DNA of 64,000 nt from Candidatus Freyarchaeum deiterrae (GTDB taxonomy: Archaea > Asgardarchaeota > Jordiarchaeia > Jordiarchaeales > Jordiarchaeaceae): positions 32,001 through 96,000 of the forward strand of contig CP147778.1 in the NCBI GenBank assembly GCA_037305845.1, written 5' to 3'. Both the position numbers and the translations under genes were made by a program. Position 1 is the first letter of the stretch. Every line of letters starts with the position of its first letter. Positions 26,668 through 42,564 of this stretch are shown here, one piece after another. The notes below the pieces were generated by a model. That model searched no databases, was not told the origin of the DNA, and saw only the letters and a list, made by a program, of their open reading frames with translations.

Positions 26668-29142
26668 TCACTTTTGATCCACTTCAAATCCTGTATCGGG
26701 CTGATACCACTTGGATATTTCTTCCTTAGGAATATATGTGAAAGCTCCTATTTTTTTAAAAGTTGGAGAATGGATTATTTTTTCTTTCATCTTATTGCTT
26801 TCTATTGAAAGAGTATATTGGTTTATATCCTTTTTTATTTTCATTAAGTTTCTTCTTTTTTCGTATCCTTTACTTTGTTCTACTGTTTTTTCAATTTCTT
26901 TTATAGTACGCTCTGCCTCTTCATCAATTTCAACAAATATAGATATGGAGTCTGATTTTTCTTTTATTAACTTGAATTCGTTTATATCATAAAAATTTAA
27001 ATTTCTTAGACATTCTACAATTCGTCTAGAGTCTTCTTCGCTTGTTCTTTCTGAAATTAGTTTATAATATTCATCTGCTGATTTTAAAACAAAATCTTTT
27101 TCCGATACTTTGTTTCCGAATTTTTTGATTATTTCTTTTGTAGCATCTACTAGTACCGAATCGTATATATATGAAAGAAAAGGCCTTTTATGTTTTTCAT
27201 CCTTTAACAATATTATATTGACCAAACCTTTTTTTTCTTTATTTTCCCTATTACATCTCCCCGCAGTCTGAATTAAGCAATCTAGTGGAGCCATATCTCT
27301 ATAAATAATATCTACACTTATATCTACACCAGCTTCAATTAATTGTGTACTCACAATAATCTTTCTTTTATTATCTAATTTTATTTTTTCGATCCTATTT
27401 AAACGGTATTTTGGCAAAATATGAGTTGACAAATTGATAAGTTCTAAGTCAGGAAAAATACAAATCCCATCTTTATCAAGACATTTTTTGGAATCCACGT
27501 GATAGTGGTCAGAAAATTTATTTTTTAGATAAGTATACAGCTCCTTGCAAGAGTTGATAGTATTCAATACTATCATAAAATCCTTATCTTTATTATTTAA
27601 AAGTTCATTAAAGATCTCGTCTTTAAATTTGTTGAAATCTTTTTCATTGAGATCGAAGTTATACTCAACTCTATCGAATAATCTGAAATATTCTTCTCTA
27701 TTTTTTGCAAGTTCTCTTGTCTCTCTCTCTCCTTCAAAAATAAGTGGTTTTGTGGCTGTCATTAATATAATCCAACAATTGAAATTATCTGCCATATACT
27801 TTAATGCTTCTTTAACCAGAAGCCAATAACAATGAGGTATAGACTGTATTTCATCTAAAATTATTATCGAGTTTGTCATATTGTGAAATTTTCTCGCCGC
27901 TCTATTTTTATTTGTAATTAGGCTGTGAAAAAGTTGGACAAATGTTGTGATTATTATTTCAGAATGCCAACCTTCTGTAAGTAACAAAGAGTTATTTATG
28001 TCTTCAATGATATTTAACTCGTTATCTTCTGTCTTTTTTTCTCTGTATTCTACATCCGCCAGATGATGATGCTTTAATAATAGATTGGAGGGAATTTCCT
28101 TATACTCCTCGCTCTCTCTAAAAACTTTCTCGATTACTTCACTATTTTGGTCTATAATGCTTAAAAATGGTAGGGCGTATATTATTTTAGGAGTAAATCC
28201 AAAGTTTGCTGCAATTCTTTCTCTTAGATTTAATGCTAAAGAAAAACCTGTTAATGTTTTTCCCATTCCAGTTGGAAGATTTATGGATAAAATTCGTTCA
28301 CTGGTTATATCCAAACTTTGTAAGGAATTATTCACCTCGTTATACGCCCTTTCCCTAATGCTATCGATAAAGGTTTTACTTGCACCGAATTTAATTACTT
28401 TGTAATCGTTTACTATATTACTTCTAATCGTCTTAATTCTATCAGGAATCCTTGTTTCTGAAGCATCCAGTTTATCTGAATCCAAAAGGACAGAATAGAA
28501 AAAAAGAATAGAATAATAGTAGTCCATATTTTTTTCTTTACATAGTTTCTTTGCTTGAGTACGTATTTCTTCTGTAAATTTGGTAAGACTTTCACAATTA
28601 ACAAATATATTAAAAAACCCTTGAATTTCGAAATCTTCTAGAAGTTCACTATATATCCTCTTTATTTCATCCATATTATTATTAACAATATCGTCTATTT
28701 GTTTTTTAGCAGTTTTTATTTCACCTTCATCTTTTAACTTGTCAATTTCTCCATCTGTTCCTCTTATATTTCCAAGACTTCCATGATGCTTGTTTATAAT
28801 AATCCATGCTATTATCGGCATATACCAAAATTTTTCCAACTCGTTAATTTTGTTAAGATAAATTTTTGTGGTATAATATCCAAATAACGAAGACAAAAAA
28901 CCATGTTTGGCATATTTAGTTCTTTCTTTAGTGATCAAGTAATCTTGAAAGGCCTTGGTTGCCTTGCCAAAGTCGTGAGAAATTCCAATTATATAAGCTA
29001 CCTTAGAAAAAATTTCTTTATTTTGTATTCGTTTTGAACTCACTATATCTTCAGATAATTTACCAACATTTTTAAGATGGTTTCTTAACAATTTATCTGG
29101 ATGCGATTTTAGATTAAAGGAAAACAATATTTTCTTCTCCAA
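26668..29142 (-). CDS. cas3: Cas3 HD nuclease-helicase
   Basis: SHDFGK, PTGMGKT, DEIQ, MTAT, QTAGRCNR. Confidence 0.97.
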   Translation of the reverse strand: MEKKILFSFNLKSHPDKLLRNHLKNVGKLSEDIVSSKRIQNKEIFSKVAYIIGISHDFGKATKAFQDYLITKERTKYAKHGFLSSLFGYYTTKIYLNKINELEKFWYMPIIAWIIINKHHGSLGNIRGTDGEIDKLKDEGEIKTAKKQIDDIVNNNMDEIKRIYSELLEDFEIQGFFNIFVNCESLTKFTEEIRTQAKKLCKEKNMDYYYSILFFYSVLLDSDKLDASETRIPDRIKTIRSNIVNDYKVIKFGASKTFIDSIRERAYNEVNNSLQSLDITSERILSINLPTGMGKTLTGFSLALNLRERIAANFGFTPKIIYALPFLSIIDQNSEVIEKVFRESEEYKEIPSNLLLKHHHLADVEYREKKTEDNELNIIEDINNSLLLTEGWHSEIIITTFVQLFHSLITNKNRAARKFHNMTNSIIILDEIQSIPHCYWLLVKEALKYMADNFNCWIILMTATKPLIFEGERETRELAKNREEYFRLFDRVEYNFDLNEKDFNKFKDEIFNELLNNKDKDFMIVLNTINSCKELYTYLKNKFSDHYHVDSKKCLDKDGICIFPDLELINLSTHILPKYRLNRIEKIKLDNKRKIIVSTQLIEAGVDISVDIIYRDMAPLDCLIQTAGRCNRENKEKKGLVNIILLKDEKHKRPFLSYIYDSVLVDATKEIIKKFGNKVSEKDFVLKSADEYYKLISERTSEEDSRRIVECLRNLNFYDINEFKLIKEKSDSISIFVEIDEEAERTIKEIEKTVEQSKGYEKRRNLMKIKKDINQYTLSIESNKMKEKIIHSPTFKKIGAFTYIPKEEISKWYQPDTGFEVDQK

Positions 29143-29839
29143 CTTTGTAGAATTCTCCTTCTTTGATTTTCAATTCCCTTGCATTCATTTCGTACAGAAT
29201 ATCAACATATTCTTGAACTACCCTATCTTTGTTCATGACCATGGGTATTCTTTCTAGTCCATATATACCATCTTCTACCACTATTTCCATCCTGTCTCTT
29301 CTTATAACAGAATGAATTTTTTCCTCTTTACTAGTCTTTTTTAAAACAATATTCTTAAATTCTCCAATAAAACTAAAATTGGCTATTAATCCACTAATGC
29401 CTAAATAAGGTGTATAGAAAGTTTTGTGATTCTCCAAGAATTCTTTTAATTCATCATAAAGTTTTCCGTTTTTTAACCAAACATATATCCTATATTCGGG
29501 ATTTTTCACAAATTCAAATGGTATAAGTGTACGTGGATTTTCTTTAATGTCCCAAAGATAAAATCCTCGGCTGGTGTCTATTAAGCTTAAATTTATTCTT
29601 ACCTTTTTAATTGGTTGTAAGATTCTTATTGCAAATTTAGCATTCTCTTTAGAAAAAAATTCATAATACGAATCCCTCTCTAGTCCAACCACTGCCGATA
29701 CTATTCCTGATAATGCTGTTACTGTGGGTATTGAGTAGGTTAATGGAGATGTTGTTGTTTCAATTCTTCTGAAATGTGCATAATCTCCCCAAATGTCAAA
29801 TACTAATACTTTATTTACTTGCGGCATAGTTGTCATCAA
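29114..29839 (-). CDS. cas5: Type I-B Cas5
   Basis: GDYAHFR, TYSIPT..ALSG, YTPYLG. Confidence 0.95.
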   Translation of the reverse strand: MMTTMPQVNKVLVFDIWGDYAHFRRIETTTSPLTYSIPTVTALSGIVSAVVGLERDSYYEFFSKENAKFAIRILQPIKKVRINLSLIDTSRGFYLWDIKENPRTLIPFEFVKNPEYRIYVWLKNGKLYDELKEFLENHKTFYTPYLGISGLIANFSFIGEFKNIVLKKTSKEEKIHSVIRRDRMEIVVEDGIYGLERIPMVMNKDRVVQEYVDILYEMNARELKIKEGEFYKVGEENIVFL

Positions 29840-29857
29840 ACTTTTTGTGTTTGTAGA

Positions 29858-30859
29858 TTACATATTTAGGTTCAGAGGACTCGCTTGAAATCCCTCTTTT
29901 TTCAGATTTTCTTCTATTTCAGAACCTTTTATCTCAACGCCTTCCACAAAAAATACGACATCTTCGTTTACCTCGTATTCTATTTTCTCAATTTTTTCCT
30001 TATTTATTTTAAGTGTGTTTATAAGATCTGTAATGTCCAACTTTACTTCTGAAATATCTCTAATTTCTTTTTCATCTTTATCAGTTATTAGTCTGATTTT
30101 TTTGTCTATATAACCGATATGATAATTTTTTTCTTTGTAAATAACTCTTAAGAGTAATCTTGGAAGTTGACCTATTTTAGATCTTGTAATAAGATTTTTG
30201 GTCCCGTTCCAAATTCCATCCAAAAGTAAATTTACATCGTCTTCGGTGAGTTCGGTTGTTTTTGCAGCATTTTCATTTATTATTCCATAAAAACATATTA
30301 AGGAATATGGAAGAATATATTCGTCCCTAAAAGTCTTTTGCGCCTTTTCCTTTTCCGAAGCAAAAGCACCTGTACCTTTTATGTGGACTACTTCTACTTT
30401 ATGCAAAGACCTTCCGAACCTAAACTGTACAGGTCCAATCAAAGTTATGGAAGACTTTTCTTTTTCTGTTTTCTCGACTGGAATTGTTGCACCAAATAGT
30501 CTTACATCAATACAATTTTTTATTACATTTTCTCTCATCGTTTTCTTCATTTCTCCTAGAGGAAGATCTTTTTTGTCTTTTTTTTCTCCTTTCTCGTCTA
30601 CTAAGAAGTCTTCGATTCTCATTTTAGCATCTTGGATTTTTCCAGGCTCATACTCAATTGTTCTTACAAAAATTTCCTTCTCTTTAAAATTATGTAGATA
30701 GTCTCTAATTGTCCTTTTCAATCTAACATCGGTCACAATATTTATTTCTGTTTCTTCGTCTATTCTGGGTTTGTTTTCATCCATAGGGTCTCCATTTGGA
30801 TTTGCGTCTTTTATGTCGTACAGAAATACAATTTCAGATCTATTTTTTATTTCACTCAT
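29858..30859 (-). CDS. cas7: Type I-B Cas7 (Csh2)
   Basis: NPNGDP...PRID, TDVRLKRTIRDY, DVRLFGA, GPVQF. Confidence 0.96.
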   Translation of the reverse strand: MSEIKNRSEIVFLYDIKDANPNGDPMDENKPRIDEETEINIVTDVRLKRTIRDYLHNFKEKEIFVRTIEYEPGKIQDAKMRIEDFLVDEKGEKKDKKDLPLGEMKKTMRENVIKNCIDVRLFGATIPVEKTEKEKSSITLIGPVQFRFGRSLHKVEVVHIKGTGAFASEKEKAQKTFRDEYILPYSLICFYGIINENAAKTTELTEDDVNLLLDGIWNGTKNLITRSKIGQLPRLLLRVIYKEKNYHIGYIDKKIRLITDKDEKEIRDISEVKLDITDLINTLKINKEKIEKIEYEVNEDVVFFVEGVEIKGSEIEENLKKEGFQASPLNLNM

Positions 30860-32696
30860 TTTCTTCACCTTCTCTCTCCTTGAAAATTCTTCCTAAATTT
30901 AAACCTAAAGCAAAATAATAACTTATTTCATCCTTTGATAAACTCCAACCATTATTCTCTGTTTCCATCAAATATTTAGAAATTGATTCTGCTAACCAGG
31001 AATATCCAACCTTATATTCCCTAAGTTTTTCTATAATTTCTGGAAACAATTTTTTAATTTTCTTCTCATCAAGCTTTAATCCATACAATCTCGATCTAAA
31101 TGGCGTCGAACCACGACTTGCGAATTGAACATCCAGAAGAAATTTTGCTAAAACACCTGTTAAAAATACGGCTTTTTTATCTGGAACGTTAAAAGCATTC
31201 GCAAAATCCGCAAAAAACTTTTCCATTTCTTCACTCTCTTTAGCCGTCTTTAAATTTAATTCTTTCTTCTCAGCTCTTTCACCCATTTTATAACCTCCTT
31301 TAATCAATCCCAACTCGTTAATAAAGGTGAACAAGAATAAAGATTTCAATGAATATAAAGCCTCGTTCCAGTCTTGGTTAACATGTTTATTCCTAATTTC
31401 TCGTATAAAAGCATTGACAATAAAATTCTTGCTGATAGGCCTTTGCGCCAAAATGTCTCCAACCACATCTATGAAATATTTATCATAAATTCCAGTTATT
31501 TTTGAGCCGGGGAAAAAAACCCTAATCATTCCTGCCATATCTCTATTCTTCAATTTCTTACCATCCCAGCTAGCTTTTATAAAGTCTTCAGACCATTTCT
31601 TTCCAAACAATTTTTTCAAATATTCTTCCTTAAAAATAGATTTACTGTTGTTAATTTTTTCAAAGGCATCAAACAATTTCTTTATCCAAGTAGGAGGCAC
31701 ATCTTCAACATACCGAACTATGTCAAAATAATCTCCTTGTTTGGGTTCAAAAAATACGAAAATTAAATTTAGTATATTCCCCTTTTCTTTCACCAGATAA
31801 CAAATGTCGTCCTCTACGCCCAACAAACTTTCCCTATACTTCATCTTATTTTGGTCTATAATGTCTTCTATGACCCCTTCTTGAATTTCTCCAAAAGTGA
31901 AATTAGGTATCACATAAAACAGATACCCATAAAACTTTTTTTTGAGATAATTATCTAAAAACTCTTTACCTGCAACTAAATGAATTGCACAGTGTTCACA
32001 TACTGGTAGTTGCTTCCAAGAATTTTCACGTAGAAATTCTGGTGCAAACCCTTTTTTATCTACTGTAAAAACAGAAAATGGTGATGCAAAGCCTAAAACT
32101 TCTCCCTCTTTTTTACAGAGAGAGCATATACCATCTCCTTTTGAGGAAACACCATGCTTATAGTAAAATTTCTCTTTGGCTCCTTCTTTCAAAATGTCTC
32201 TAAATATATTAAAATCACCAATAAATTTTTCTCTTCCTTCCTCTCTTATTTTGATGGTAAGTATTAGGTTTCTTCTCTCTTCTTTGCTTAACTCCTCATA
32301 TTTTTCAGATACTTTTTTGAATATTTCCTCTTTTTTTGTTTGGATCTCCTCGCTGAGTGATTTAATAATTGGGTTTGTTTTATATTGTTTGGAATATTCT
32401 CCAAACCATAGATCCCATCGTTCCTCAACTTTTTCTAGCGATGCAATCTTAGCGGTGGGTGTCACATCATATCTGCCATGACTGAAAGTTCTGTACAAAT
32501 ATCTTTCTGATTCTGCTTGCTCATAATCCTCTATATGGACATGATCAAAAACAATACTACTATTCTTTTGTTCAAAAACAACGCATATGACCTTTTTTGT
32601 ATTTGTTAATTTGGATTTTTGTACAAGAATCTCCACATCATTTAATTCTCGCTTTTTAATATTGTATTCTCCTAATCTTTTTACGGCATCTAACAT
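30852..32696 (-). CDS. cas8b: Type I-B large subunit Cas8b (Csh1/TM1802-like)
   Basis: CSLC...FTVDKKGF...PVCEHC; C-terminal FLTGVL..LL.VQ and YYFALG. Confidence 0.92.
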   Translation of the reverse strand: MLDAVKRLGEYNIKKRELNDVEILVQKSKLTNTKKVICVVFEQKNSSIVFDHVHIEDYEQAESERYLYRTFSHGRYDVTPTAKIASLEKVEERWDLWFGEYSKQYKTNPIIKSLSEEIQTKKEEIFKKVSEKYEELSKEERRNLILTIKIREEGREKFIGDFNIFRDILKEGAKEKFYYKHGVSSKGDGICSLCKKEGEVLGFASPFSVFTVDKKGFAPEFLRENSWKQLPVCEHCAIHLVAGKEFLDNYLKKKFYGYLFYVIPNFTFGEIQEGVIEDIIDQNKMKYRESLLGVEDDICYLVKEKGNILNLIFVFFEPKQGDYFDIVRYVEDVPPTWIKKLFDAFEKINNSKSIFKEEYLKKLFGKKWSEDFIKASWDGKKLKNRDMAGMIRVFFPGSKITGIYDKYFIDVVGDILAQRPISKNFIVNAFIREIRNKHVNQDWNEALYSLKSLFLFTFINELGLIKGGYKMGERAEKKELNLKTAKESEEMEKFFADFANAFNVPDKKAVFLTGVLAKFLLDVQFASRGSTPFRSRLYGLKLDEKKIKKLFPEIIEKLREYKVGYSWLAESISKYLMETENNGWSLSKDEISYYFALGLNLGRIFKEREGEENE

Positions 32697-32897: not shown

Positions 32898-33500
32898 CTA
32901 GCTTCGTCTACAGATTTTCCAGTATTCGCAATCCGTGCATTTTCCGGAGTTGGGTGTTGGCGGCGGCATTGTTTCTTCTTCCACCATTTTTCTCATCTGA
33001 GTTAGGATTCTGAGTACTGTAAGTTTTGCTTGCGTTGTGATTTCGACTTTTCTTTCTTCATCCGCATCAGTATATCGTATCACTGCGTATCTAACAATAA
33101 CTCCGAAACATACCTCAATTAGCAGTGACTGAGCCACTATCTGAAGATAATGTCCTAGATGTAACTTTTCTGATGCTTCCTTCCCGGTCTTCACATCTAC
33201 TGGAACTATGGTTTCCCCGTCGTACTGGAAGTAGTCCGTTAGAGCGGATAATCCTAACGACTCGGATAGTAAGTAAAAATTATAGTATCGGGTTACATTC
33301 TCTTGTCTTTCGGTCTTTTTTGCTCTGCACTCAACCTCGTGAATTTGTGTGCCTCTATTCATTTTCACCGTAGGGTATACACGTGCTTTGAGTACATATC
33401 TGAAGTAGGGTATTCTTTTGCAATACGCATATTGCCTTATGTCCTCAGCAGTGAAAACCTGTTTCTGTCTTGCTGCTTCCCACGTTTCTATTTGAGTCAT
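32898..33500 (-). CDS. cas4: Cas4
   Basis: YAYCKR, D...PVDVKTG, Q...Q, CTDCEYWKIC. Confidence 0.93.
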   Translation of the reverse strand: MTQIETWEAARQKQVFTAEDIRQYAYCKRIPYFRYVLKARVYPTVKMNRGTQIHEVECRAKKTERQENVTRYYNFYLLSESLGLSALTDYFQYDGETIVPVDVKTGKEASEKLHLGHYLQIVAQSLLIEVCFGVIVRYAVIRYTDADEERKVEITTQAKLTVLRILTQMRKMVEEETMPPPTPNSGKCTDCEYWKICRRS

Positions 33501-33778
33501 TATACCAATACTACCTCCTTTTCCTCTATGTTGTAAAGTTCGGAAACTATAATTTGGTTTTCAATACACCTCTCACACACTGGAAATATTCGTATATCTG
33601 CAAGTTCTCCTCCCACCATGTCTTCCAGTTCTAATGAGAGCATTTCGGCTTTGTTTCTGCTCATTTCTCCTATGAAGACACTTTTCTGTAGGCGTCTTAG
33701 TCCGTATCCGAAGAGTCTGGCTGCTATCTTGGTTCGGAGTCTGTCGTCGGGTACGTCGTAGGTTACTATGTTAATCAT
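33500..33778 (-). CDS. cas2: Cas2
   Basis: VTYDVPDDRLR, RLQKSVF. Confidence 0.96.
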   Translation of the reverse strand: MINIVTYDVPDDRLRTKIAARLFGYGLRRLQKSVFIGEMSRNKAEMLSLELEDMVGGELADIRIFPVCERCIENQIIVSELYNIEEKEVVLV

Positions 33779-34832
33779 TCTGGTTGTCTCCTCCTCCGCC
33801 TGTGGTTCCCCACCATTCGAAGGTGTAGGGGGTGTAGCTCTGAGCTTTTCCTAGGAGGTAGCGTGCGATTTCTCTTGCCTGGTGGAATATCATGTTTTCG
33901 AGGGGTGCTTTTCCTTCGTCTGGTTTCGCCTCGCTTTCCAGTCGGCTGAGTATGGCTTCTATGTACTTTTTCTTAGCATCATCACTGAACAACAGTCTTC
34001 CTTCGGTGTGTTCAAAGTCTTTTGGGGTTAGTGTTCCCTGTGTGAACATGCTTACGGCGGTTCTGTCTACGAGTGGTTGTCTGAATTCTTCTGAGAGGTC
34101 TAGTACTAGGGATGCTTTTCCTGAGCGGTCTGCGTGTAGGAATCCGGCGAATGGTTCCAGTCCGCATGCGGTTACCGCTGCGAGTACTCTGGAGTTGAGT
34201 ATGGTGTATCCTAGGCTGAGTGCTGAGTTGAAGGGGTCTCTGGGTGGTCTTTTCTCTCTTCTCTGGAATCTTATTTCTTCGGGTAGGATTAGTCTTAGGG
34301 CTTGGTAGTATATGCGGGTGGCTTCTGCTTCTAGTCCCATTATCTCGTATCGTTTTTCGGTGATCAGTCCATTATTTATTTCGCTGAGTTTTTCTTGTAC
34401 TCTTTTTATTTCTTGGGTGGCTGCTTCTAGGTGGTCTGCTAGTGTGGGGTCGGTGCGTTTTCTGCTGTTTGCGAAGTAGTTGATTAGTCGGTGCTTGTTG
34501 GTCATTCCGGCGTCCACGAATGTTTTGGCTAGGTGGGTTCCCCTGTGGTCGCCGTAGGCGGTTATCTGTTCTCTGCGTGTGAGTACTGTGCCGTGCATGA
34601 AGAAGCCGTGGAGGAGGGCTATGGGTTTGCCGCCTCCCATGAAGAGTACTGGTACGCCGTTTTCTGCTAGGAGTTTGACGGCTTCGGAGGAGATGCTGGC
34701 GGAGGCGGATACTATGATTTCGGAGAGCTTGACCACGGGTACCTCTTGGAGTTTTTCGCCTCTGCAGGTGATTTTGATGGCTTGCCCCTTTTTTCCTATG
34801 AAGGTTCCGTGGCTGCTTATTTCGATTAGCAT
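33771..34832 (-). CDS. cas1: Cas1
   Basis: MGLEAEA..YY, RPPRDPFNSALSLGY, GFLH, LVLDLSEEFR..VD. Confidence 0.97.
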   Translation of the reverse strand: MLIEISSHGTFIGKKGQAIKITCRGEKLQEVPVVKLSEIIVSASASISSEAVKLLAENGVPVLFMGGGKPIALLHGFFMHGTVLTRREQITAYGDHRGTHLAKTFVDAGMTNKHRLINYFANSRKRTDPTLADHLEAATQEIKRVQEKLSEINNGLITEKRYEIMGLEAEATRIYYQALRLILPEEIRFQRREKRPPRDPFNSALSLGYTILNSRVLAAVTACGLEPFAGFLHADRSGKASLVLDLSEEFRQPLVDRTAVSMFTQGTLTPKDFEHTEGRLLFSDDAKKKYIEAILSRLESEAKPDEGKAPLENMIFHQAREIARYLLGKAQSYTPYTFEWWGTTGGGGDNQND

Positions 34833-34838
34833 TTTTTA

Positions 34839-35738
34839 TTAGTCCTCCTCGCAGATTATCCCTCTCCCCCTCGCAGAGTGAAGGTCGTGGGCAATAAGTT
34901 GGCCGTTAGATTGAAAGTATAGGATGTTTCCTCTCACGTAGACTACTCTTCCGAGCAGGTCTTCGATCTGCCAGGCGTTCACATCTACCGGGAGTTCTGG
35001 ATGTACACCGTAAACTTGGCTTAGGTCGAGTGTGCATACTTCGTGTAGGTCGAATTTTTTTGTGGTTTCTTGGCTTAGCTTTTTTAGCTCTTCGATTTTT
35101 GGGCCTTTTGGGTGGGCGAATTCTTCGGCTTTGTATTCGAATCTTACTCTGGTTTCGAGTCCTAGGGAATCTGCTATGAGTTGTTCTGTTTCTTGGGCGG
35201 TGGTGAGGTTTAGGTTTCCTCTGAGGACTGTGGCGCAGTCTGCTCCCTGTTCTATTAGTCGGTACTTATAACCGTCGGGGGTGCTCCATCTTTCCGCCCG
35301 GGTTACTCCCACTTTGAAGAGTTCTCCGAAGCCCGCTAGATATACTACGTGTTCGTCTCCGCAGTATTGGGCGGCCCAGGGTGAGTCGCATGGTGGGTTG
35401 CTGGGGTTGCAGTGTTGATTGTATGGTGTGCCTGCGCCTTTTGTTACGCATTCAAATCTCTGCACGTTGACGAGACTTGCGCACTCGTCGCAGTACTGAG
35501 CATCTCCAATTGTGGGGTTGAGGCATTCTAGGCAGTATTGTTCTCTGGTGAGCATGAGGGCGTGTTCTCCGAAGAGTGGAGCGCTTCCCAGTCCTAGGGG
35601 TGATAGGATGTCTATGTGCGGTAGGTAGAATCCTAGGAAGGGTCGCCAGCTGTATCCTCTCATTACGAATTGGATATCCTCTTGGAGGATTATTTCTTTA
35701 GTTTGGGGAAATACTATTTGTTGTGAGATTGCTACCAT
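34839..35738 (-). CDS. DUF2797-family Zn-finger protein (GIY-YIG-like core)
   Basis: CLEC..CDEC; HVVYLA...KVGVTR...RLIEQGA. Confidence 0.8.
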   Translation of the reverse strand: MVAISQQIVFPQTKEIILQEDIQFVMRGYSWRPFLGFYLPHIDILSPLGLGSAPLFGEHALMLTREQYCLECLNPTIGDAQYCDECASLVNVQRFECVTKGAGTPYNQHCNPSNPPCDSPWAAQYCGDEHVVYLAGFGELFKVGVTRAERWSTPDGYKYRLIEQGADCATVLRGNLNLTTAQETEQLIADSLGLETRVRFEYKAEEFAHPKGPKIEELKKLSQETTKKFDLHEVCTLDLSQVYGVHPELPVDVNAWQIEDLLGRVVYVRGNILYFQSNGQLIAHDLHSARGRGIICEED

Positions 35739-36027
35739 CTACTTTTTTCCTCCATTTTTTCTCTCGCAAGGACCTTTCTGTCTATATAATCTCTTTGGAA
35801 ACATATAAACATTTTGGAAATATATTTCTATAATTCACTTATAATTCTAAAAATAACCAAAAAAACAGCTTAACAAAAAGAAAAATGAAACACACCACAA
35901 AACACCCACCCCAAACCTTCCCAAAAAATCCCTTCGATGATATATTTCCATTCTAAGGGTTCATTGGGATGATTACAGGGCAGGTTCTAGCTCCATAACG
36001 TTTTTAAATTTCCAATACAATTGCCAT

Positions 36028-36306
36028 TTGGTGGCTTACTTGGTGATACTGGATAAGTCTGGTAGGGTACTACTCCCTAAAGAGATTAGGGACAAGCTGG
36101 GTCTTAGTGAGGGGACACCTCTAGAGGTAACCGTCAGAGGTAGCGAGATTGTGATTAGGCCCTATGATAAGGGACTGGAGGAGCGGGTTGAAGAAGCGGT
36201 AAAATTTCTGTCTGAGAACGCTCCTAGAGCCTTTGTGACGCAGGAAGAGGGAGATAAGTGGTTCTCAAGAGAGTACTGCCTGAGAAAGATAGGGTTGAAG
36301 GAATAG
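36028..36306 (+). CDS. AbrB-family antitoxin
   Basis: LDKSGRVLLPKEIRDKLGL..G. Confidence 0.9.
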   Translation: MVAYLVILDKSGRVLLPKEIRDKLGLSEGTPLEVTVRGSEIVIRPYDKGLEERVEEAVKFLSENAPRAFVTQEEGDKWFSREYCLRKIGLKE

Positions 36307-36758
36307 TTGATGTTGGGGTGCTTGTTATTGCCCACTTCGAAAACCCTGCTAATAAACAAGCACTAAAATTCATTGGGGACGTTCTACTCTGGAAGCGGAG
36401 GTGTCTAGTTCCGACTTCAACTCTCCTAGGTGCATACCATATCCTCACAAGCTACCTAGGTGTTGAAAGAGACTTGGCTTGTAACGCTCTTTCCAAAACG
36501 TTAAAAACACTTTCTCCAGCTTTCTACGAAGATATCACCATAGAACTAGCCTCTGAAGCAATAATAAATGCCACGAGTTACAAGATAGCCTCTTGGGACG
36601 GATACATTATAAGCCTCGCAAGAAGGTATAACGCCCCAATAATATATACTATCGATAGTAAGCTAGCTAGCAAAGTAAAGGACATTCAGATTATTAATCC
36701 AATCCCGGAAGAAACTTTCAAAAAATATAACGAGTGGCTGGAAAGTAAATTAACGTAA
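36258..36758 (+). CDS. PIN domain toxin (start uncertain)
   Basis: IVDVGVLV, SWDGYII, IYTID. Confidence 0.8.
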   Translation: MVLKRVLPEKDRVEGIVDVGVLVIAHFENPANKQALKFIGDVLLWKRRCLVPTSTLLGAYHILTSYLGVERDLACNALSKTLKTLSPAFYEDITIELASEAIINATSYKIASWDGYIISLARRYNAPIIYTIDSKLASKVKDIQIINPIPEETFKKYNEWLESKLT

Positions 36759-36893
36759 AAGAACACCTGCTAACGCTGAATAGCAGACTAACCCAAAAGA
36801 AGAACCACATGGAAACCTACATCGCTTCATTCGATTGACGCGAAATCTTTATTTGTTTCGATGTGTACGGGTTTTATTCGGTGATTCTGGCAT

Positions 36894-37127
36894 ATGGTTG
36901 TAAGTCGAGTGGGTTCGAAGGGAGAACTTTTCCTCCCAAAGGATGTAAGGGAGAAACTTGGGCTTAAACCTAACATGAGGGTGCTTTATAAAGTTGAAGG
37001 GGGAAGATTGTTGGTGGAGCCGGTTCCAAGCCTTGAAGAAGTATTTGAGGAACCTCAGCCTGTTGAGTTAACCTTGGAAGAGTTTCACGAATTTAGAAGA
37101 AAGCTTTCTCGAGAGTCTGAGACTTGA
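36894..37127 (+). CDS. AbrB-family antitoxin
   Basis: VGSKGELFLPKDVREKLGL. Confidence 0.9.
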   Translation: MVVSRVGSKGELFLPKDVREKLGLKPNMRVLYKVEGGRLLVEPVPSLEEVFEEPQPVELTLEEFHEFRRKLSRESET

Positions 37128-37597
37128 GACTTCTGCTTGACACAACTTATTTCCTTCCCGCTATAGGGATCTCTATTAAGAGTTTGGTAGGGAATGCGGT
37201 AATTAAACTGATTTCAGAAGGACAACGGATTCTGATGAGTGAGGTAACCATCTTTGAACTATCCGCTAAGGGAGGCAAGCAAGTAGCCACTAGGAATCTT
37301 GAAGCTGAGAGAGTGGTGAAAGGAATAAGAGCTATTATATATGATGGGCGTATTGAGAGGATTCCTGTACATGATGCATCAATTCTGCTAACTGCGTTCA
37401 AGCTTAGAGAGGTATTAGATGATTTTATTGACTGCATAATCCTTTCATCGGGCATTAACTAAGCTGACGTGCTGATAACTGAGGATAAGGACATCCAAAA
37501 CCTGATGGAGGGAGGAGGGTTTCAAGAGCTCATAGCGGCAATAAATCCTACATTCACAATCAAACCATTAGCAAATGTACTAAAGCCTCATACATAA
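37124..37597 (+). pseudogene. PIN toxin with premature stop
   Basis: LLDTTYFLP...DFIDCII; TAA at 37460, after which the frame continues ADVLITED to 37597. Confidence 0.8.
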
Positions 37598-37691
37598 CGA
37601 ACCAGCTTACAGCGAAGAGCGGAATTGGAAGTTATTACTGGCTTATTTGTCGCATTTCCTTCTTATGGTTACCCAATAGGTCTACGATAAT

Positions 37692-37823
37692 CAACATTCT
37701 CGGTAGACTGCTCTACAGCAAATGAGTACTCGTCCCAAAATTCAAACCACTGGAAAACCAGAACGAAAACCTAACCAACGAGATAGAGTTTCTAATAAAA
37801 TACCCCAGAGAAACCGCATCAGG
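37692..37823 (+). pseudogene. Decayed 'gene X' fragment
   Basis: NILGRLLYSK*VLVPKFKPLENQNENLTNEIEFLIKYP. Confidence 0.75.
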
Positions 37824-38009
37824 CAGGACAGGAATCACGGGTGAAAAATGTTTCGTAGCCAGTGCTTTAATAATTCACATCAAACATGGTATCACTAAAC
37901 ACGCTAAATTACAAAACCCTTCCCCAGATCGTATGATTCTCCATTGGTCAAAAATAATATTGTAAAACTTAATAATGTTGGAAAACTATAGTGATTCTGG
38001 TAAATTGAA

Positions 38010-38255
38010 ATGTCTGAAGAAGTTTCAATTGTTGGAAAAAAATTCATTGTTGTAATACCGAAGAATATTCGGAAGACGCTAGGTATCAAGGAAGGTCAGA
38101 AGATAAGATTCAAAGTTGAGCAAGGCAAAATACACTTAGAACCAATAATTGACCCCTTCGAACTGGCCATTAAAGGATCAAAATTCGCTGAAATAACAGT
38201 TGAAGAATTTGAATCCGAATCCGAGGAAATGCAGAATGAATTCTTCAAGGATTAA
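38010..38255 (+). CDS. AbrB-family antitoxin
   Basis: VGKKFIVVIPKNIRKTLGIKEG. Confidence 0.9.
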   Translation: MSEEVSIVGKKFIVVIPKNIRKTLGIKEGQKIRFKVEQGKIHLEPIIDPFELAIKGSKFAEITVEEFESESEEMQNEFFKD

Positions 38256-38688
38256 AGTACTTCTCGACACCACGTATCTGCTACTTTTTTTGGGCGTGAG
38301 TTAAAGGAAGTCGAAAGTGTTTTAGAAAAGCTTAATCCTTTACCAAGGCGGTAAGATTGAGCCGAACTACTCGCCGTTCAGCCTACTTGAAGCCTTAGGC
38401 AAAATGTCAAAAACACAATTTGACGAAGAAAAACTCAAAAACGGATTAATTTCAATTCTCGAATCAAAAGCATTCGCAGAAGTCTTACCAACATACGACG
38501 GCTACCTAAAAGCCCTAAAACTAAAAGCAGAAGGATTCAAAGACTTTGTCAATCTCTTACTAAACGAAATAGCTACCACAAGAGGCTTAAGGTTGCTAAC
38601 AAGAGACCGTGAAATCATAAAATTCGTACAACCGATGGGATATGGGTTGCTTTTTATCTTTCTATTTCTTCTTTCAGCTTGTTTATAA
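38236..38688 (+). pseudogene. PIN toxin, frameshifted
   Basis: KVLLDTTYLL followed by a stop; downstream fragment ends LLTRD. Confidence 0.75.
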
Positions 38689-39043
38689 TTTCTTCTGCTG
38701 CTTCCAGCATTTCTTCCACTTCTTCTTTTGAGTGGGGGGTAATGGGTCCTGGAGGATAACGCTCGTCATAATAGAATACATTTAGTTTTCTGCCTAGATC
38801 AAGATATTTTTGAAAGGCAACATCAAAATTTGTAGCCTTGGTTATGAGTGATTCTAGGTCGTGTATCTTCTTTAATTTCCAGCCCTTATGGATAAGATAA
38901 GCCTTTAGGTATTTCTCAATGGCTTGATGGATATGAAAAACCGCTACATCAAAATACTTGCTGTCCCTTAGAATTTTTGCGGCGTCTAGGTCATGTTTTC
39001 CTCTTTCCATCCATTCCTTAACTATCTGCTCCTTCGCTTTCAT
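38654..39043 (-). CDS. HEPN domain protein
   Basis: FHIHQAIEKYLKA, KIHDL, ERYP. Confidence 0.9.
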   Translation of the reverse strand: MKAKEQIVKEWMERGKHDLDAAKILRDSKYFDVAVFHIHQAIEKYLKAYLIHKGWKLKKIHDLESLITKATNFDVAFQKYLDLGRKLNVFYYDERYPPGPITPHSKEEVEEMLEAAEEIINKLKEEIER

Positions 39044-39359
39044 ATAGGACTACCCCCTTTTGGATTATCTCCTCTACGAAATCGTCTCCTATTCTGAGGC
39101 GTTCCTCCAGTTCCTCAGGAGTATACACTAAGGGGGATACAGGTATTTCGCGGTTAGGATTGTAAATTATCCTTTTAACGTGTACGACTCTGTCCACTCT
39201 TCTCTCATTAGTTTTTTTCAAAATCAAAAGGTCTATGTCGCTATCTTCTTTAGGATTGCCGTAAGCGTAGGAGCCGAATAGAATAATTTTCAGGGGCTTG
39301 TATTCGTTTTTCAGCTTTTCAACAATCTCGGATAGTATTGCTTTTATCTCTACTTCCAT
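39018..39359 (-). CDS. MNT nucleotidyltransferase
   Basis: ILFGSYAYG...DSDIDLL. Confidence 0.92.
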   Translation of the reverse strand: MEVEIKAILSEIVEKLKNEYKPLKIILFGSYAYGNPKEDSDIDLLILKKTNERRVDRVVHVKRIIYNPNREIPVSPLVYTPEELEERLRIGDDFVEEIIQKGVVLYESEGADS

Positions 39360-39479
39360 CTTTTACCTTCCTCTAGCTTGTATTCTCTATATATTTATAC
39401 GCTTTTAAATTATAAACACTCTCTAATAATATTAATTACAGGAGATTAACGGGTGTAGGTAAAACTCTGGAAGCAGATA

Positions 39480-39513
39480 CTTTCAACCCTCGTTACTGAG
39501 GAGCTTCTTTTGA
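39480..39513 (-). repeat. Solitary CRISPR repeat
   Basis: Reverse complement reads TCAAAAGAAGCTCCTCAGTAACGAGGGTTGAAAG. Confidence 0.88.
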
Positions 39514-39548
39514 CTCATAGATGCCAATTCCTTGATAGGTTAAGAGTA

Positions 39549-39810
39549 CTACGTCAAAATCTTTAAACCAAACTCTGAAAAACCTTTCAAAATGCTTTAA
39601 ATAAAGTGTGTAGAATTAGGTCTTTTGCGATTGCAATTGATGCGATTAGAAAATTTGCGTCTTCAATAGGTTCACCTTTTCTTTTAACGTGTTGTAAAGC
39701 TTACAATAAACCAATAGGAATATTGTGCAAAGGTAGCTATTTCCTAATAACTCAAGCTTTTTGGTTCTTGAGTATTCCACAAGAACGGAGGTGTCAACAA
39801 GTACTCTCTC
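39549..39810 (-). pseudogene. VapC/PIN pseudogene
   Basis: RVLVDTSVLV...LYNTLKEK / GEPIEDA..IASIAI / KHFERF in shifting frames. Confidence 0.75.
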
Positions 39811-39994
39811 TGAACTTGAAGGACTTCCTGAAGCTTTCGGCTTCCTTTTTGAGCTCATCCCAATCGACGCCCTCCACCAGCTCATAGAATTCTTTAAACT
39901 TCTTCTTTTTCTTTAGGTAATTCCGAATTAGCTCCTTAATCTCTTCTTCGGTAACAACATCCGGAACATCAATAACAATTTTTATCCGATTCAC
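39794..39994 (-). CDS. Putative antitoxin
   Basis: 66 aa gene overlapping the PIN remnant. Confidence 0.65.
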   Translation of the reverse strand: MNRIKIVIDVPDVVTEEEIKELIRNYLKKKKKFKEFYELVEGVDWDELKKEAESFRKSFKFRESTC

Positions 39995-40011
39995 ACTCGT
40001 CTAGGAAACTT

Positions 40012-40638
40012 TTATTTCTCCAGTTTCAGCCATATTTCCTCATCTGGGTTATAGCTCCAATTTTTGTAAATGTCCTTCTTGAAGACTTTTAACAGTAGAG
40101 CGATTCCTGCACTGTCGAAGAGAACATCATATCCTTCCAGAATTCCAAAAATTAGGGAGGATTCCAAGTTAAGCATGGCAATGAATCCTTTGAGGGTAAT
40201 GGAATTTATCTCAAAGGCTACCCCATACTTTATGGAAATTTGGTATTCGTCGTCGGCAAGACTCAACGGATTTTCAGAAATAACTAGGAGATCTACATCG
40301 CTTTCCTCATGTGTTTTTCCTTTGGCTACGCTTCCGTAAAGCAGGACGCCTAAGACTTCGGGGTGTTTTTCCACGATTTCATAAGCCGCTATCCAAGCGA
40401 TTTCCTTTAAAGAGGCTACCAGAATACTACGTAACTTATCCCGGTCAATCTGATAGCCGTTGCCACTGATCCTTACTACGCCTAGTCGAAGGAGCTGTTT
40501 TAGTTTTATCGATAGCCATCTCTCGCTTAGACCCGTTTCTCTAAATAGTTCTGAGAAGGACTTTTCTCCATTCGATAAAGCGTGTATAATTCTTCCTTCG
40601 GGTGTGAGTGTGAATAGCTTAAGCACTTGCTTTCTCAT
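40012..40638 (-). CDS. wHTH-fused MNT nucleotidyltransferase
   Basis: KSFSELFRETGLSERWL HTH; LYGSVAKG...SDVDLL. Confidence 0.88.
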   Translation of the reverse strand: MRKQVLKLFTLTPEGRIIHALSNGEKSFSELFRETGLSERWLSIKLKQLLRLGVVRISGNGYQIDRDKLRSILVASLKEIAWIAAYEIVEKHPEVLGVLLYGSVAKGKTHEESDVDLLVISENPLSLADDEYQISIKYGVAFEINSITLKGFIAMLNLESSLIFGILEGYDVLFDSAGIALLLKVFKKDIYKNWSYNPDEEIWLKLEK

Positions 40639-41129
40639 AGTATATCAATTACGAGATTTTGGATTTTAAATTTACTAAGTATAGAAACTTTATCAAGTAC
40701 ATATAATCTTTCAACCAATAAAGGATAGTCAGAATACTGTCACAAGAGTGGAAGCAGTCCATCTAGGGTTGCTAAGGAAGTTGAAGACGCCACCCACCTC
40801 AGCACCTCTAACATCACTAGGCGGCCTAGAGTCCACATACACCTTTTCCAGCTCTTGGAGGTGATGTACACCAAGAGGAGGGGGAGAACAAACTTGAGGA
40901 CTCTTCTTGTGCTTTAGTTGATGGTGGTAGGGTTTCTGCTTACTGTTTCCTTAGGGGGGAGGTGTTAACTTTCCTCAAGTCGAGGATGGAAGTCCTCCAC
41001 GCATAAAGCATACCCTTCCCATAAACCAAAAAACATACATATTACATTGCGCCGTCGATTGTCGATTTACTGTTTTCTGTGCGTTAGGTTTTTTAGTTTA
41101 GGTGGAGAAGTATAGTTACGGTGGCTTTT

Positions 41130-41285
41130 ATGGAGGAGCTTGAGCGTCTGCTCAAGGAGAAAATGAAGATTCTTAAACCCAACGAGTGCGCCGTAATTTA
41201 CGACGACGAGAGAGGACTTCTTATCAGTGTTTGTAATGAGGAAGGGAAGATAAAAATAGTTTCAAAAAAGGTAGATGAACTTTAA
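41130..41285 (+). CDS. Small hypothetical protein (51 aa, not in ORF track)
   Basis: MEELERLLKEKMKILKPNECAVIYDDERGLLISVCNEEGKIKIVSKKVDEL; TAATG overlap with the next ORF. Confidence 0.55.
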   Translation: MEELERLLKEKMKILKPNECAVIYDDERGLLISVCNEEGKIKIVSKKVDEL

Positions 41286-41698
41286 TGATCCTCATTTCCT
41301 CAACCAGACCTAACTACTTTTACTCAGCTAAAAGACACATACTGATAGTAGTCTCGAATCCAACAAGCTTAGAGAGCAGAGTCTTAGGTATTAGAGAACT
41401 CTTAAATTTTGAGGACAGGGAGCTAGCTGAGGCGGCTAGAAGGGTTCTTGAAGCCGCCCTAGAGAAAATAGTTGAACTCGGGGTTCCCTTCATTCTGAGA
41501 GAGATTGGAGTGGAGGTAGATTTTGAGGATCCTTTATGGAGCTACACAGTGTTAACACTGGAAGTGTTTGTTGGGGAGGATCTGTTTGAAACTTTGAGAG
41601 AGAGCGCTGTGAATGCTGCTTACTCTGGTTTAGAGCCTGAAAAAGCTTCGCGGGTGCTGCTGGATGTTCGGCCCTATAGAGTTTCTGAAACCGGCTGA
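41285..41698 (+). CDS. Hypothetical protein, putative HEPN partner
   Basis: Acidic ORF overlapping the HEPN gene; start uncertain. Confidence 0.55.
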   Translation: MILISSTRPNYFYSAKRHILIVVSNPTSLESRVLGIRELLNFEDRELAEAARRVLEAALEKIVELGVPFILREIGVEVDFEDPLWSYTVLTLEVFVGEDLFETLRESAVNAAYSGLEPEKASRVLLDVRPYRVSETG

Positions 41699-41975
41699 AA
41701 AACTGTTAACGTATGACGAGGCAAAAATCAGAACCGCTATTAGTAGGTCTTATTATGCTTCCTTCCTCTACGTGAGGGAAGTTGCTGGTTTAGGAGGATT
41801 AAAGATGCCAAGAGTCCGCAGAGAAGCGGTCCGATTTCTCTATGGGAGGAGACCGTTTGCCGAAAACACCCTCCACCTACTAAGGCAGCGTAGAAACGAT
41901 GCAGACTACGATTTAAAATGTGTATTTTCCATATCCGAAGCAAAGCTATCAGTCAACTACGCGAAAAAATTATAG
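41664..41975 (+). CDS. HEPN (UPF0332-like) protein
   Basis: RTAISRSYYASF, LRQRRNDADY. Confidence 0.82.
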   Translation: MFGPIEFLKPAEKLLTYDEAKIRTAISRSYYASFLYVREVAGLGGLKMPRVRREAVRFLYGRRPFAENTLHLLRQRRNDADYDLKCVFSISEAKLSVNYAKKL

Positions 41976-42138
41976 GCAGCATATAATTCATCGAGTTAAT
42001 TGGAACTTTTACGAGGGGAAAGGATTCGAAAGGAGTGAAATTAGTTTTGGCTCATAATTTATTGGTGGAGAGTCGAGTTTGCTACAAAAATGTGGGCCTT
42101 TTTACTCGTGGTGGTTTCAGCCGGGTTTTCACAAAGAG

Positions 42139-42564
42139 TTACGGGCAGTGGTTTTCCACGAATTCGTTTAGCTTAGCAACTTTCAATTCGTTCACGTTTT
42201 TCCACTCTTTTTCGTACTGTTTCTCTCCTCCAGTAACCAGAACATCCGACTCTGTGGCGATGGCTGTTGAAAGGATTACGGCATCGGCTAGAGAGAAGCG
42301 GTACTTGGTCTTTAGGAGACCGGCTTTGAAGGCTACTCCTAACGTTAAGGGATTCTGTATCAGAGGGACGCTGTTTATGTAGGCAAACTGAATGCGAGCT
42401 TCTTTATCTCCGTAAAGCCGGCTTATTACGTTAACTAGTTCAGCCATCGTAATAACACTTATATGGGTTTCAAAAAGAGTTTTTGCGGCTTCAAGAACCC
42501 TTTCAGCATAGTTGTTCTCTTTATACTTCTCCACCAAAACCCATGTGTCTAGAAAAACTCTCAC
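42139..42564 (-). CDS. vapC: PIN toxin
   Basis: VFLDTWVL, TMAEL, FSLADAVILSTA, LVTG. Confidence 0.9.
   Translation of the reverse strand: MRVFLDTWVLVEKYKENNYAERVLEAAKTLFETHISVITMAELVNVISRLYGDKEARIQFAYINSVPLIQNPLTLGVAFKAGLLKTKYRFSLADAVILSTAIATESDVLVTGGEKQYEKEWKNVNELKVAKLNEFVENHCP

What the first reader, a model, noticed from the sequence alone, without database searches (positions are those of the whole stretch)
32898..35738. DUF2797 Zn-finger/GIY-YIG-like gene leads the cas1-cas2-cas4 operon
Seen: its stop lies 6 bp before the cas1 start on the same strand. By eye its base composition resembles cas1, cas6, herA and the NurA-like gene, unlike the AT-rich cas8b-cas3 block. DUF2797 is not a standard cas ancillary gene to my knowledge. 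Inference: dead NurA, herA, DUF2797, cas1, cas2 and cas4 (all minus strand) may be one adaptation module later split by the 36-43 kb TA cluster, with DUF2797 supplying the nuclease activity NurA lost to make prespacers.
Basis: partly seen in the sequence, partly recalled or inferred. Interest (0 to 1): 0.75.

Follow-up and report, generated by a model that had tools for sequence, protein, structure and literature searches.

The report
Asgard cas1-linked DUF2797 nuclease-like gene
The first gene of this Asgard archaeon's CRISPR spacer-uptake operon encodes an unstudied zinc-binding protein with an apparently intact DNA-cutting core; it sits in front of cas1 across much of the phylum (a link already listed in a 2023 catalogue, never tested), and its tie to the nearby non-cutting NurA-HerA pair looks like a shared gene switch, not a broken-up operon.

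Summary
Observation confirmed: DUF2797 (34839-35738, minus strand) stops 6 nt before cas1 and heads cas1-cas2-cas4. The adjacency is not unique: 35 of 301 Asgard genomes searched (12 families) have it. These copies form their own branch apart from stand-alone DUF2797, and their tree mirrors Cas1's. The model shows a GIY-YIG-type hairpin, Arg helix and Glu helix with invariant Y133, K142, G144, R160, E185. Fold scores are weak (Z 4.1-4.8), but the top four hits are GIY-YIG nucleases. The association is already published as UAS-13/UAS-44 'Acquisition (DUF2797)' (Altae-Tran 2023 supplement), without function. The link is instead a conserved 12-bp palindrome, 7 nt before the adaptation TATA box and about 29 nt after the pseudo-NurA TATA box. 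Best reading: an accessory adaptation nuclease whose operon is probably controlled by wHTH-pseudo-NurA/HerA. No activity is shown. This scan reported the same on other Asgard genomes.

The parts
34839..35738 (-). Cas1-linked DUF2797 protein, 299 aa: beta-rich N/C-terminal part, Cys4 zinc ribbon (C69, C72, C83, C86), second Cys/His cluster (C97, C110, C117, C126, H130), GIY-YIG-like core about 127-244 (Y133, K142, G144, R160, E185)
   Evidence: Pfam; alignments; AF2 pLDDT 88; fold search
33771..34832 (-). cas1, catalytic E168/H233/E248 present; the only cas1 match in the genome, which has three long arrays (65, 78, 79 repeats)
33500..33778 (-). cas2
32898..33500 (-). cas4 with four Fe-S cysteines and RecB-type acidic/Lys motif; 54-58% identical to the cas4 of most congeners but 91% to one, while DUF2797, cas1 and cas2 are 73-89%
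35817..35828 (.). Perfect 12-bp palindrome GAAATATATTTC, ending 7 nt upstream of the TATA-like box: candidate activator-position operator of the adaptation operon
35804..35809 (-). TATA-like box of the DUF2797-cas1-cas2-cas4 promoter (inferred from position and conservation)
44755..46230 (-). wHTH fused to a NurA-fold domain lacking both catalytic-motif aspartates (C171 and L285 in their place): pseudo-NurA, candidate regulator
43230..44792 (-). HerA-family ATPase, Walker A (186) and Walker B (397) motifs intact; ORF overlaps the pseudo-NurA gene
46251..46262 (.). Second copy of the palindrome (1 mismatch), about 29 nt downstream of the TATA-like box at 46293-46298 and just before the pseudo-NurA start: repressor position
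36028..42872 (.). Block of toxin-antitoxin-like genes on both strands (AbrB/PIN pairs, MNT/HEPN, wHTH-MNT) between the two operons
46785..52561 (+). CRISPR array of 78 37-bp repeats; its leader is back-to-back with the pseudo-NurA promoter
26668..32696 (-). Type I-B effector block cas8b-cas7-cas5-cas3, AT-rich, 201 nt after cas4; relatives have I-A- or I-D-type blocks in this slot
7175..7987 (+). cas6 with the same codon signature as cas1 and DUF2797; in five other genomes cas6 directly follows herA

Best explanation
The gene belongs to a CRISPR-dedicated branch of DUF2797 and encodes an accessory nuclease of the Asgard spacer-acquisition machinery. It is co-transcribed and probably translationally coupled with cas1-cas2-cas4. 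Its GIY-YIG-type core (one metal, Tyr general base) most likely cuts branched, flap or frayed DNA ends, as the Slx1/HIGLE nucleases that head the fold list do. It would then help make or trim prespacers for Cas1-Cas2 alongside an intact Cas4, roughly the slot that Csa1 holds in Sulfolobales. It travels with Cas1, not with the effector type or Cas4, so its step is probably PAM-independent. In a subset of lineages, including this one, the operon is wired to a second operon (wHTH-pseudo-NurA, herA, often cas6) by a shared 12-bp palindrome. The wHTH-pseudo-NurA probably binds it, repressing its own promoter and switching the adaptation promoter. SHOWN: gene order, its conservation, separate clade, co-phylogeny with Cas1, invariant catalytic-type residues, loss of NurA aspartates, and the palindrome's position and co-occurrence. 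INFERRED: nuclease activity, substrate, the step in adaptation, the protein that binds the palindrome, and the sign of regulation.
For: Directly upstream of cas1 in 35 of 301 Asgard genomes, 12 families, i.e. 35 of the 62 genomes with a Cas1 match at E<1e-40; also in independent contigs. 29 cas-linked and 30 stand-alone DUF2797 fall on two sides of one branch (SH-aLRT 100, quick tree, long branches present), and several genomes carry both kinds. DUF2797 and Cas1 trees share 13 of 14 and 15 of 16 supported splits, distance rho 0.83, although downstream effectors differ (I-B here, I-D-like L002, I-A-like L004 and L128). Model strands 130-137 and 140-147, helix 157-164, strand 168-176 and helix 178-192 follow the GIY-YIG core order described in PMC3045582 (hairpin, Arg helix, linker strand, Glu helix; YIG Tyr may be Lys). 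Y133, K142, G144, R160 and E185 are invariant in 59 of 59 sequences. The top four of 48,161 chains are At-HIGLE, two Slx1 and I-TevI (Z 4.8-4.1, rmsd 2.8-3.6, 62-86 aligned). Palindrome: only two sites at <=1 mismatch in the 64-kb window, one at each promoter. It is present (<=2 mismatches) before DUF2797 in 12 of 13 genomes that have pseudo-NurA and in 1 (exact) or 2 of 13 without, and before 16 of 19 pseudo-NurA genes. Site plus TATA is found in 8 of 11 genomes of the class, only at this promoter, with 0 control hits. Archaeal activators usually bind upstream of BRE/TATA and repressors within or downstream (PMC5937170).
Against: No activity or expression data. Fold scores are under the Z 8 that the tool calls reliable, Foldseek found nothing, and no Pfam GIY-YIG family matches any member. 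About 27 of 62 Asgard Cas1-bearing genomes show no such gene with this query, so it is not universally needed. The catalytic-type residues are equally conserved in stand-alone DUF2797, so they do not show a CRISPR-specific use. Co-phylogeny of neighbours can follow from shared descent and linkage alone. The palindrome count is dominated by kin (10 of the 12 positives are Jordarchaeia), and the protein that binds it is untested.
Confidence: 0.55

Rival explanations
1. One reading: pseudo-NurA, herA, DUF2797, cas1, cas2 and cas4 were one operon, later split by TA genes, and DUF2797 supplies the nuclease that NurA lost, cutting DNA fed by HerA.
For: All six genes are on one strand here and in G028. 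NurA is dead while HerA's motifs are intact. The shared palindrome implies co-expression. 13 of 20 pseudo-NurA genomes also have cas1-linked DUF2797. CRISPR-linked NurA/HerA were proposed to act in adaptation (PMC3396285).
Against: herA is never adjacent to DUF2797 and is followed by cas6 in G029, G004, G021, G017 and G006. The blocks are divergent in G056, G041 and G288 and convergent in G029. Each block has its own conserved promoter. 22 of 35 DUF2797-cas1 genomes lack a detectable pseudo-NurA, including G037 (99% complete), G127 (97%), G003 (95%) and the single-contig G074. Codon use does not join them. The genome has about five other NurA matches, four of them near a HerA match.
Confidence: 0.12
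2. DUF2797 is not mainly a nuclease but a zinc-bound DNA-binding or scaffold factor that helps Cas1-Cas2 integrate at the leader, the 'host factor' role that archaeal type I systems need.
For: It tracks Cas1 and not Cas4 or the effector. It has two zinc sites and a beta-rich domain besides the core. Sulfolobus Cas1-Cas2 needs host factors for specific integration (PMC5815122 abstract).
Against: Five catalytic-type residues are invariant at 20-40% overall identity, which suggests catalysis.
Confidence: 0.15
3. It acts after integration, or in general DNA repair: a structure-selective nuclease that resolves half-site or repair intermediates, co-expressed with Cas1 to limit damage but not part of prespacer making.
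For: The closest folds are Holliday-junction/flap nucleases. Stand-alone DUF2797 are widespread outside CRISPR loci. In Jordarchaeia the cas-linked copy is the only DUF2797 found. Sulfolobus couples adaptation and repair genes through Csa3a (PMC7480081).
Against: Several genomes keep a stand-alone copy beside the cas-linked one, which suggests specialisation. Nothing here separates this reading from the best one beyond analogy.
Confidence: 0.13
4. Passenger: an ancestral DUF2797 came to lie in front of cas1 and has been carried along without a CRISPR role.
For: Absent from many Asgard cas1 loci; one copy is interrupted by a stop codon (G145).
Against: Fixed first position and 1-90 nt spacing across 12 families at 20-40% identity; a separate clade; an added conserved cysteine (C97 in 27 of 29, gap in stand-alone copies); kept while effectors and flanks change.
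Confidence: 0.05

Closest known systems
UAS-13 'Acquisition (DUF2797)' and UAS-44 'Acquisition (DUF2797 large zinc finger protein)', Altae-Tran et al. 2023 Science, PMC10910872 supplement
   Same: DUF2797 gene linked to the adaptation module. Three short motifs of the published uas13A sequence match exactly in locus L033 (G074), a cas1-adjacent member of the same clade as the window protein.
   Different: The catalogue gives a label and a score only: no fold, mechanism, test or regulon in the passages retrieved, and no true mention in the main text. UAS-44 is a longer protein (about 430 aa) that lacks the K-V-G and R..Q-G motifs as printed and travels with a beta-CASP gene. The window protein is 28% identical to the G074 copy.
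Csa1 of Sulfolobales type I-A (csa1-cas1-cas2-cas4)
   Same: An extra nuclease as first gene of the adaptation operon, working alongside Cas4. Csa1 and Cas4 together set motif recognition, spacer length and orientation (10.1101/486738). The operon is controlled from the first gene's promoter (PMC7480081).
   Different: Csa1 is a Cas4-family PD-(D/E)XK protein. This protein has no PF06023/TIGR01896 match and a GIY-YIG-like core.
GIY-YIG nucleases Slx1, At-HIGLE, I-TevI, UvrC N-terminal domain, Hpy188I
   Same: Order of core elements and residues Tyr / Lys-x-Gly / Arg / Glu; best structural neighbours.
   Different: Weak Z (<=4.8), 10-18% identity, no profile match; embedded between zinc sites and a beta-rich domain with no clear solved relative.
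CRISPR-associated NurA-HerA (Bernick 2012 PMC3396285; Vestergaard 2014 PMC3973734; UAS-26 and UAS-90 in PMC10910872)
   Same: A NurA-fold gene plus herA next to arrays and cas genes.
   Different: The printed uas90A and uas26B keep D-G or D-S/D-G motifs and have no N-terminal wHTH. The Asgard protein has a wHTH, lacks both aspartates and shares a promoter palindrome with the adaptation operon.
Csa3a/Csa3b regulators of adaptation
   Same: wHTH proteins that bind the adaptation promoter and switch acquisition (PMC7480081). One DUF2797-cas1 locus without the palindrome has a divergent Csa3-type gene in that position (L127).
   Different: The sensor domain here would be a pseudo-NurA ring with a HerA motor, not a CARF domain binding cyclic oligoadenylate.

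Membership tests
DUF2797 (PF10977) | Profile match above the curated cut-off | tested here: met
   52.7 bits against a cut-off of 25, residues 61-278; model matches an ESM Atlas DUF2797 cluster at TM 0.72
UAS-13 (DUF2797 acquisition-associated) | DUF2797 gene linked to the cas1-cas2 adaptation module | tested here: met
   6 nt before cas1; conserved in 35 genomes
UAS-13 (DUF2797 acquisition-associated) | Homology to the published uas13A protein | tested here: met
   Three uas13A motifs are exact in L033/G074, which the window protein hits at E 5e-16 and which lies in the cas-linked clade. Whole-sequence comparison not run, because the published sequence has no session reference.
GIY-YIG nuclease superfamily | Beta-hairpin with GIY Tyr and YIG Gly, Arg helix, linker strand, Glu helix, in that order | tested here: met
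   DSSP elements carry Y133, K142/G144, R160 and E185, invariant in 59 of 59; definition from PMC3045582
GIY-YIG nuclease superfamily | Significant structural or profile similarity to solved members | tested here: inconclusive
   Top four VIA hits are GIY-YIG but Z 4.1-4.8; Foldseek, PDB-profile and Pfam searches gave nothing
GIY-YIG nuclease superfamily | Single-metal DNA phosphodiester hydrolysis | not testable with these tools
   needs purified protein
Csa1 / Cas4 family | PD-(D/E)XK RecB-like fold with Fe-S cysteines (PF06023, PF01930) | tested here: not met
   No match for the DUF2797 protein in Pfam or NCBIfam; the analogy is to the operon slot only
Active NurA nuclease (window 44755-46230) | NurA (RNase H-like) fold | tested here: met
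   Z 21.0, rmsd 3.9, 287 aligned to 2ygk; Foldseek E 1.4e-9
Active NurA nuclease (window 44755-46230) | Catalytic Asp in the two D-G motifs | tested here: not met
   C171 and L285 here; no Asp in 16 of 16 homologues, while other NurAs of this genome keep the V-D-G motif; positions mapped by motif register; D-G as active site per PMC13748450
Repair operon herA-nurA-mre11-rad50 | Linkage to mre11 and rad50 | tested here: inconclusive
   Neighbours are an array, TA genes and, in relatives, cas6; no dedicated mre11/rad50 search was run
Csa3-type adaptation regulator (pseudo-NurA) | CARF domain plus wHTH | tested here: not met
   wHTH is present but the partner domain is NurA-fold
Csa3-type adaptation regulator (pseudo-NurA) | Binds the adaptation promoter and changes its transcription | not testable with these tools
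   Only co-occurrence and position of the palindrome

The most novel reading that the evidence does not exclude
Asgard archaea have a sensor-controlled acquisition circuit. A wHTH-pseudo-NurA/HerA complex, derived from the double-strand-break resection machine, detects free DNA ends or invading DNA without cutting them and switches on, through a 12-bp operator, an adaptation operon whose first product is a GIY-YIG-type nuclease that prepares prespacers for Cas1-Cas2-Cas4. This would give both a new nuclease class in adaptation and a new kind of adaptation regulator.
Probability: 0.25. Interest if true: 0.8.

Novelty: new member of a known kind. Interest (0 to 1): 0.5.

Why it matters
How prespacers are produced, and how acquisition is switched on, is still open outside a few model systems. 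This gene heads the cas1 operon in over half of the Asgard genomes with a clear Cas1 in the sample, yet appears in the literature searched only as a catalogue label. The analysis turns the label into a testable claim with named residues (Y133, R160, E185) and a named 12-bp site. If true, it would add a GIY-YIG-type enzyme to the adaptation toolkit and explain a dead NurA-HerA pair as a regulator. The association itself is not new, so the value lies in the mechanism, which is untested.

Tried and rejected
Complex prediction of DUF2797 (16-299) with Cas1 (1-340): no answer, score 0.00, not evidence either way; HerA and Cas4 were not tried (one job only). RNA runs: no RNA holder listed. Foldseek against PDB, PDB profile search, Pfam scan of 45 members and ESM feature search gave no GIY-YIG hit. 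All named cas-linked relatives were Asgard except one protein labelled Korarchaeota whose cluster-mates are Njordarchaeia. The idea that DUF2797 replaces a dead Cas4 was rejected: Cas4 keeps its cysteines and nuclease motif. The Makarova 2020 paper on Asgard CRISPR systems could not be opened, so an earlier mention there is not excluded. A Fisher test printed used slightly wrong counts and related genomes; it is not used. The careful IQ-TREE run did not finish; the quick tree is reported. Spacers had no self-targets beyond matches to other spacers, and no PAM was derived.
Full report
Source and setting. The window lies in a single-contig 3.58-Mb genome. The closest named relatives of the protein come from Candidatus Jordarchaeum and Freyarchaeota, so this is an Asgard archaeon of the Jordarchaeia/Freyarchaeia. 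It may be Ca. Freyarchaeum deiterrae, which is reported to have I-B, III-A and III-D systems (PMC11529989); this identification is an inference. The window holds two type III blocks, a type I-B effector block, one adaptation operon, many toxin-antitoxin genes and two long arrays.

1. The observation. DUF2797 (34839-35738), cas1 (33771-34832), cas2 (33500-33778) and cas4 (32898-33500) are consecutive on the minus strand. Six bases separate the DUF2797 stop from the cas1 ATG; a GGAGGA word in the last DUF2797 codons suggests coupled translation. Cas1 has E168, H233 and E248, and Cas4 keeps its cysteines and nuclease motif. It is the only cas1 match in the genome. The composition claim holds for cas1 and cas6 but only superficially for herA and the NurA-like gene. 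DUF2797 and cas1 correlate in codon use at 0.92 (0.5% of genome ORFs are closer), against 0.63 for herA and 0.37 for the NurA-like gene, both unremarkable. All four are about 50% GC, against 29-32% for cas8b-cas3 and 42% for cas2 and cas4.

2. The adjacency is conserved. Searching 301 Asgard genomes gave 67 with a match. Of the 30 best loci, 29 have cas1 immediately downstream on the same strand; the remaining one ends at a contig edge. Comparing coordinates with the Cas1 search adds six more (G003, G207, G015, G168, G036, G162). That makes 35 genomes in 12 families, out of 62 genomes with a Cas1 match below 1e-40. Independent contigs agree. The weak hits are a different, stand-alone DUF2797: none of 30 such loci has a cas, herA or NurA-like neighbour within about 1.5 kb, and they separate from the 29 cas-linked proteins by one branch with full SH-aLRT support (quick tree, long branches). 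The two sets were chosen by similarity rank, so the split is partly built in, but the cas1 adjacency was scored independently. The DUF2797 and Cas1 trees share 13 of 14 and 15 of 16 well-supported splits. The downstream effector changes (I-B here and in G041, I-D-like in L002, I-A-like in L004 and L128), and cas4 here is only 54-58% identical to most congeners while DUF2797, cas1 and cas2 are 73-89%. The gene therefore stays with cas1, not with the effector or Cas4.

3. What the protein is. The AlphaFold2 model (pLDDT 88) has a beta-rich part formed by both termini, a Cys4 ribbon (C69, C72, C83, C86), a second Cys/His cluster and an alpha/beta core at about 127-244. In that core, strands 130-137 and 140-147, helix 157-164, strand 168-176 and helix 178-192 carry Y133, K142, G144, R160 and E185, invariant in all 59 sequences. 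This is the order and residue set of the GIY-YIG core as defined in PMC3045582, including the Lys in place of the YIG Tyr seen in Hpy188I. In the wide structural search the four best of 48,161 chains are At-HIGLE, two Slx1 and I-TevI, with UvrC eighth, but Z is only 4.8-3.7, and sequence profiles give no support. The assignment is likely, not proven. C97 is found in 27 of 29 cas-linked copies and in no stand-alone copy.

4. The NurA-HerA question. The 491-aa gene (44755-46230) has an N-terminal wHTH and a NurA fold (Z 21). Both D-G motif aspartates are replaced in all 16 homologues. HerA keeps Walker A and B. The genome has about five other NurA matches, most beside a HerA. The pseudo-NurA was found in 20 of 301 genomes; 13 of these have cas1-linked DUF2797, and 22 DUF2797-cas1 genomes have no match, some of them nearly complete. 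Many genomes are incomplete, so these are 'not found' counts. Where both blocks share a contig they are tandem in G000 and G028, divergent in G056, G041 (array between) and G288 (about 470 nt apart), and convergent in G029. herA is never next to DUF2797, and cas6 follows it in five genomes. So there are two operons, not one split operon, and DUF2797 does not depend on a dead NurA.

5. What links them. The palindrome GAAATATATTTC occurs at 35817-35828, ending 7 nt before a TATA-like box, and with one mismatch at 46251-46262, about 29 nt after the TATA-like box of the pseudo-NurA gene. These are the only two sites at one mismatch or fewer in the window. Genome-wide such sites are at chance frequency (35 found, 34 expected), so the evidence is conservation of position. 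The site precedes DUF2797 in 12 of 13 genomes with pseudo-NurA (the exception, G288, has the exact site at the divergent pseudo-NurA start) and in 1 exact case of 13 without; it precedes 16 of 19 pseudo-NurA genes. The offsets recur: 6-10 nt before the TATA-like box in ten adaptation promoters, 28-30 nt after it in eight pseudo-NurA promoters. Site plus TATA is found in 8 of 11 genomes of the class, only at this promoter, with no control hits. Ten of the positives are close kin; the independent support comes from families f15, f16, f21 and f29. By the general rule that archaeal activators bind upstream of BRE/TATA and repressors within or downstream (PMC5937170), the layout fits a factor that represses its own operon and activates adaptation. 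The wHTH-pseudo-NurA is the obvious candidate. This step is inference.

6. Mechanism. Most likely (0.55): an accessory, structure-selective nuclease that helps generate or trim prespacers with Cas4, in a PAM-independent step, expressed under control of the pseudo-NurA/HerA pair in some lineages and of other regulators elsewhere (a Csa3-type gene is divergent in L127).

7. Comparison with what is known. The supplement of Altae-Tran et al. 2023 (PMC10910872) lists UAS-13 'Acquisition (DUF2797)' and UAS-44 'Acquisition (DUF2797 large zinc finger protein)'. Three motifs of the printed uas13A match G074's cas1-adjacent protein exactly, and that protein is in the same clade as the window's. The window gene is thus a new member of a catalogued, uncharacterised association. 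A full-text search for DUF2797 found five papers; the one I opened mentions it only as a Flavobacteria gene with a zinc ribbon, and the other four were judged from title and abstract, none about CRISPR adaptation. One relevant Asgard CRISPR paper could not be read. It works like Csa1 in operon position but is not of the Cas4 family. CRISPR-linked NurA-HerA pairs are known, but the catalogued examples keep acidic motifs and lack the wHTH.

8. Verdict. Real and conserved, already catalogued as an association, function untested. Earlier reports of this scan reached the same reading on other Asgard genomes; they were used as leads only. Interest 0.5.

Noticed in passing
window:39480-39516 (-): A solitary CRISPR repeat copy (6 mismatches of 37) in reverse orientation inside the TA block, about 120 nt upstream of an MNT-HEPN pair.
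   Followed up: partly
window:5320-16420: Mini-arrays and single repeats (5397-5511, 8127-8238, 9193, 12455-12574, 16374) interleaved with TA modules.
   Followed up: no
window:8055-8165 and 46713-46823: An 89% identical 111-nt duplication of the leader end plus first repeat; the copy at 8 kb directly follows cas6, which in relatives follows herA. This suggests a rearrangement that moved cas6 away from the pseudo-NurA-herA operon.
   Followed up: partly
window:25740-26648 (-): 302-aa gene after cas3 with no Pfam or NCBIfam match; homologues lie just upstream of DUF2797 in G237 and G255 (L026, L027), possibly another regulator of the operon.
   Followed up: no
G015:C129, G036:C173, G162:C56, G054:C8: In one family a second DUF2797-like gene lies head-to-head with a weak or partial cas1 match instead of in front of it.
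   Followed up: no
L021 (G145:C113:3874-4695): This genome's cas1-linked DUF2797 is interrupted by an in-frame TAG.
   Followed up: no
window:32898-33500 (-): cas4 is 91% identical to the L006 copy but 54-58% to other congeners, pointing to an exchange between cas2 and cas4.
   Followed up: partly
window:10541-10791, 14808-15058, 25224-25474, 37673-37823: A dispersed 150-220-nt repeat in four copies (61-87% identity), possibly a miniature mobile element.
   Followed up: no
window:61330-63060: Tandem 93-nt (31-codon) repeats in a C-terminally repetitive ORF region.
   Followed up: no
G000:C1:2677292 and 2680640: Two spacers of the third array are near-identical (36/37) in opposite orientation: a flipped re-acquisition of the same protospacer.
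   Followed up: no
L130:5147-7048: A stand-alone DUF2797 lies directly after the topoisomerase VI subunit A gene in another archaeon, a housekeeping DNA-metabolism context.
   Followed up: no
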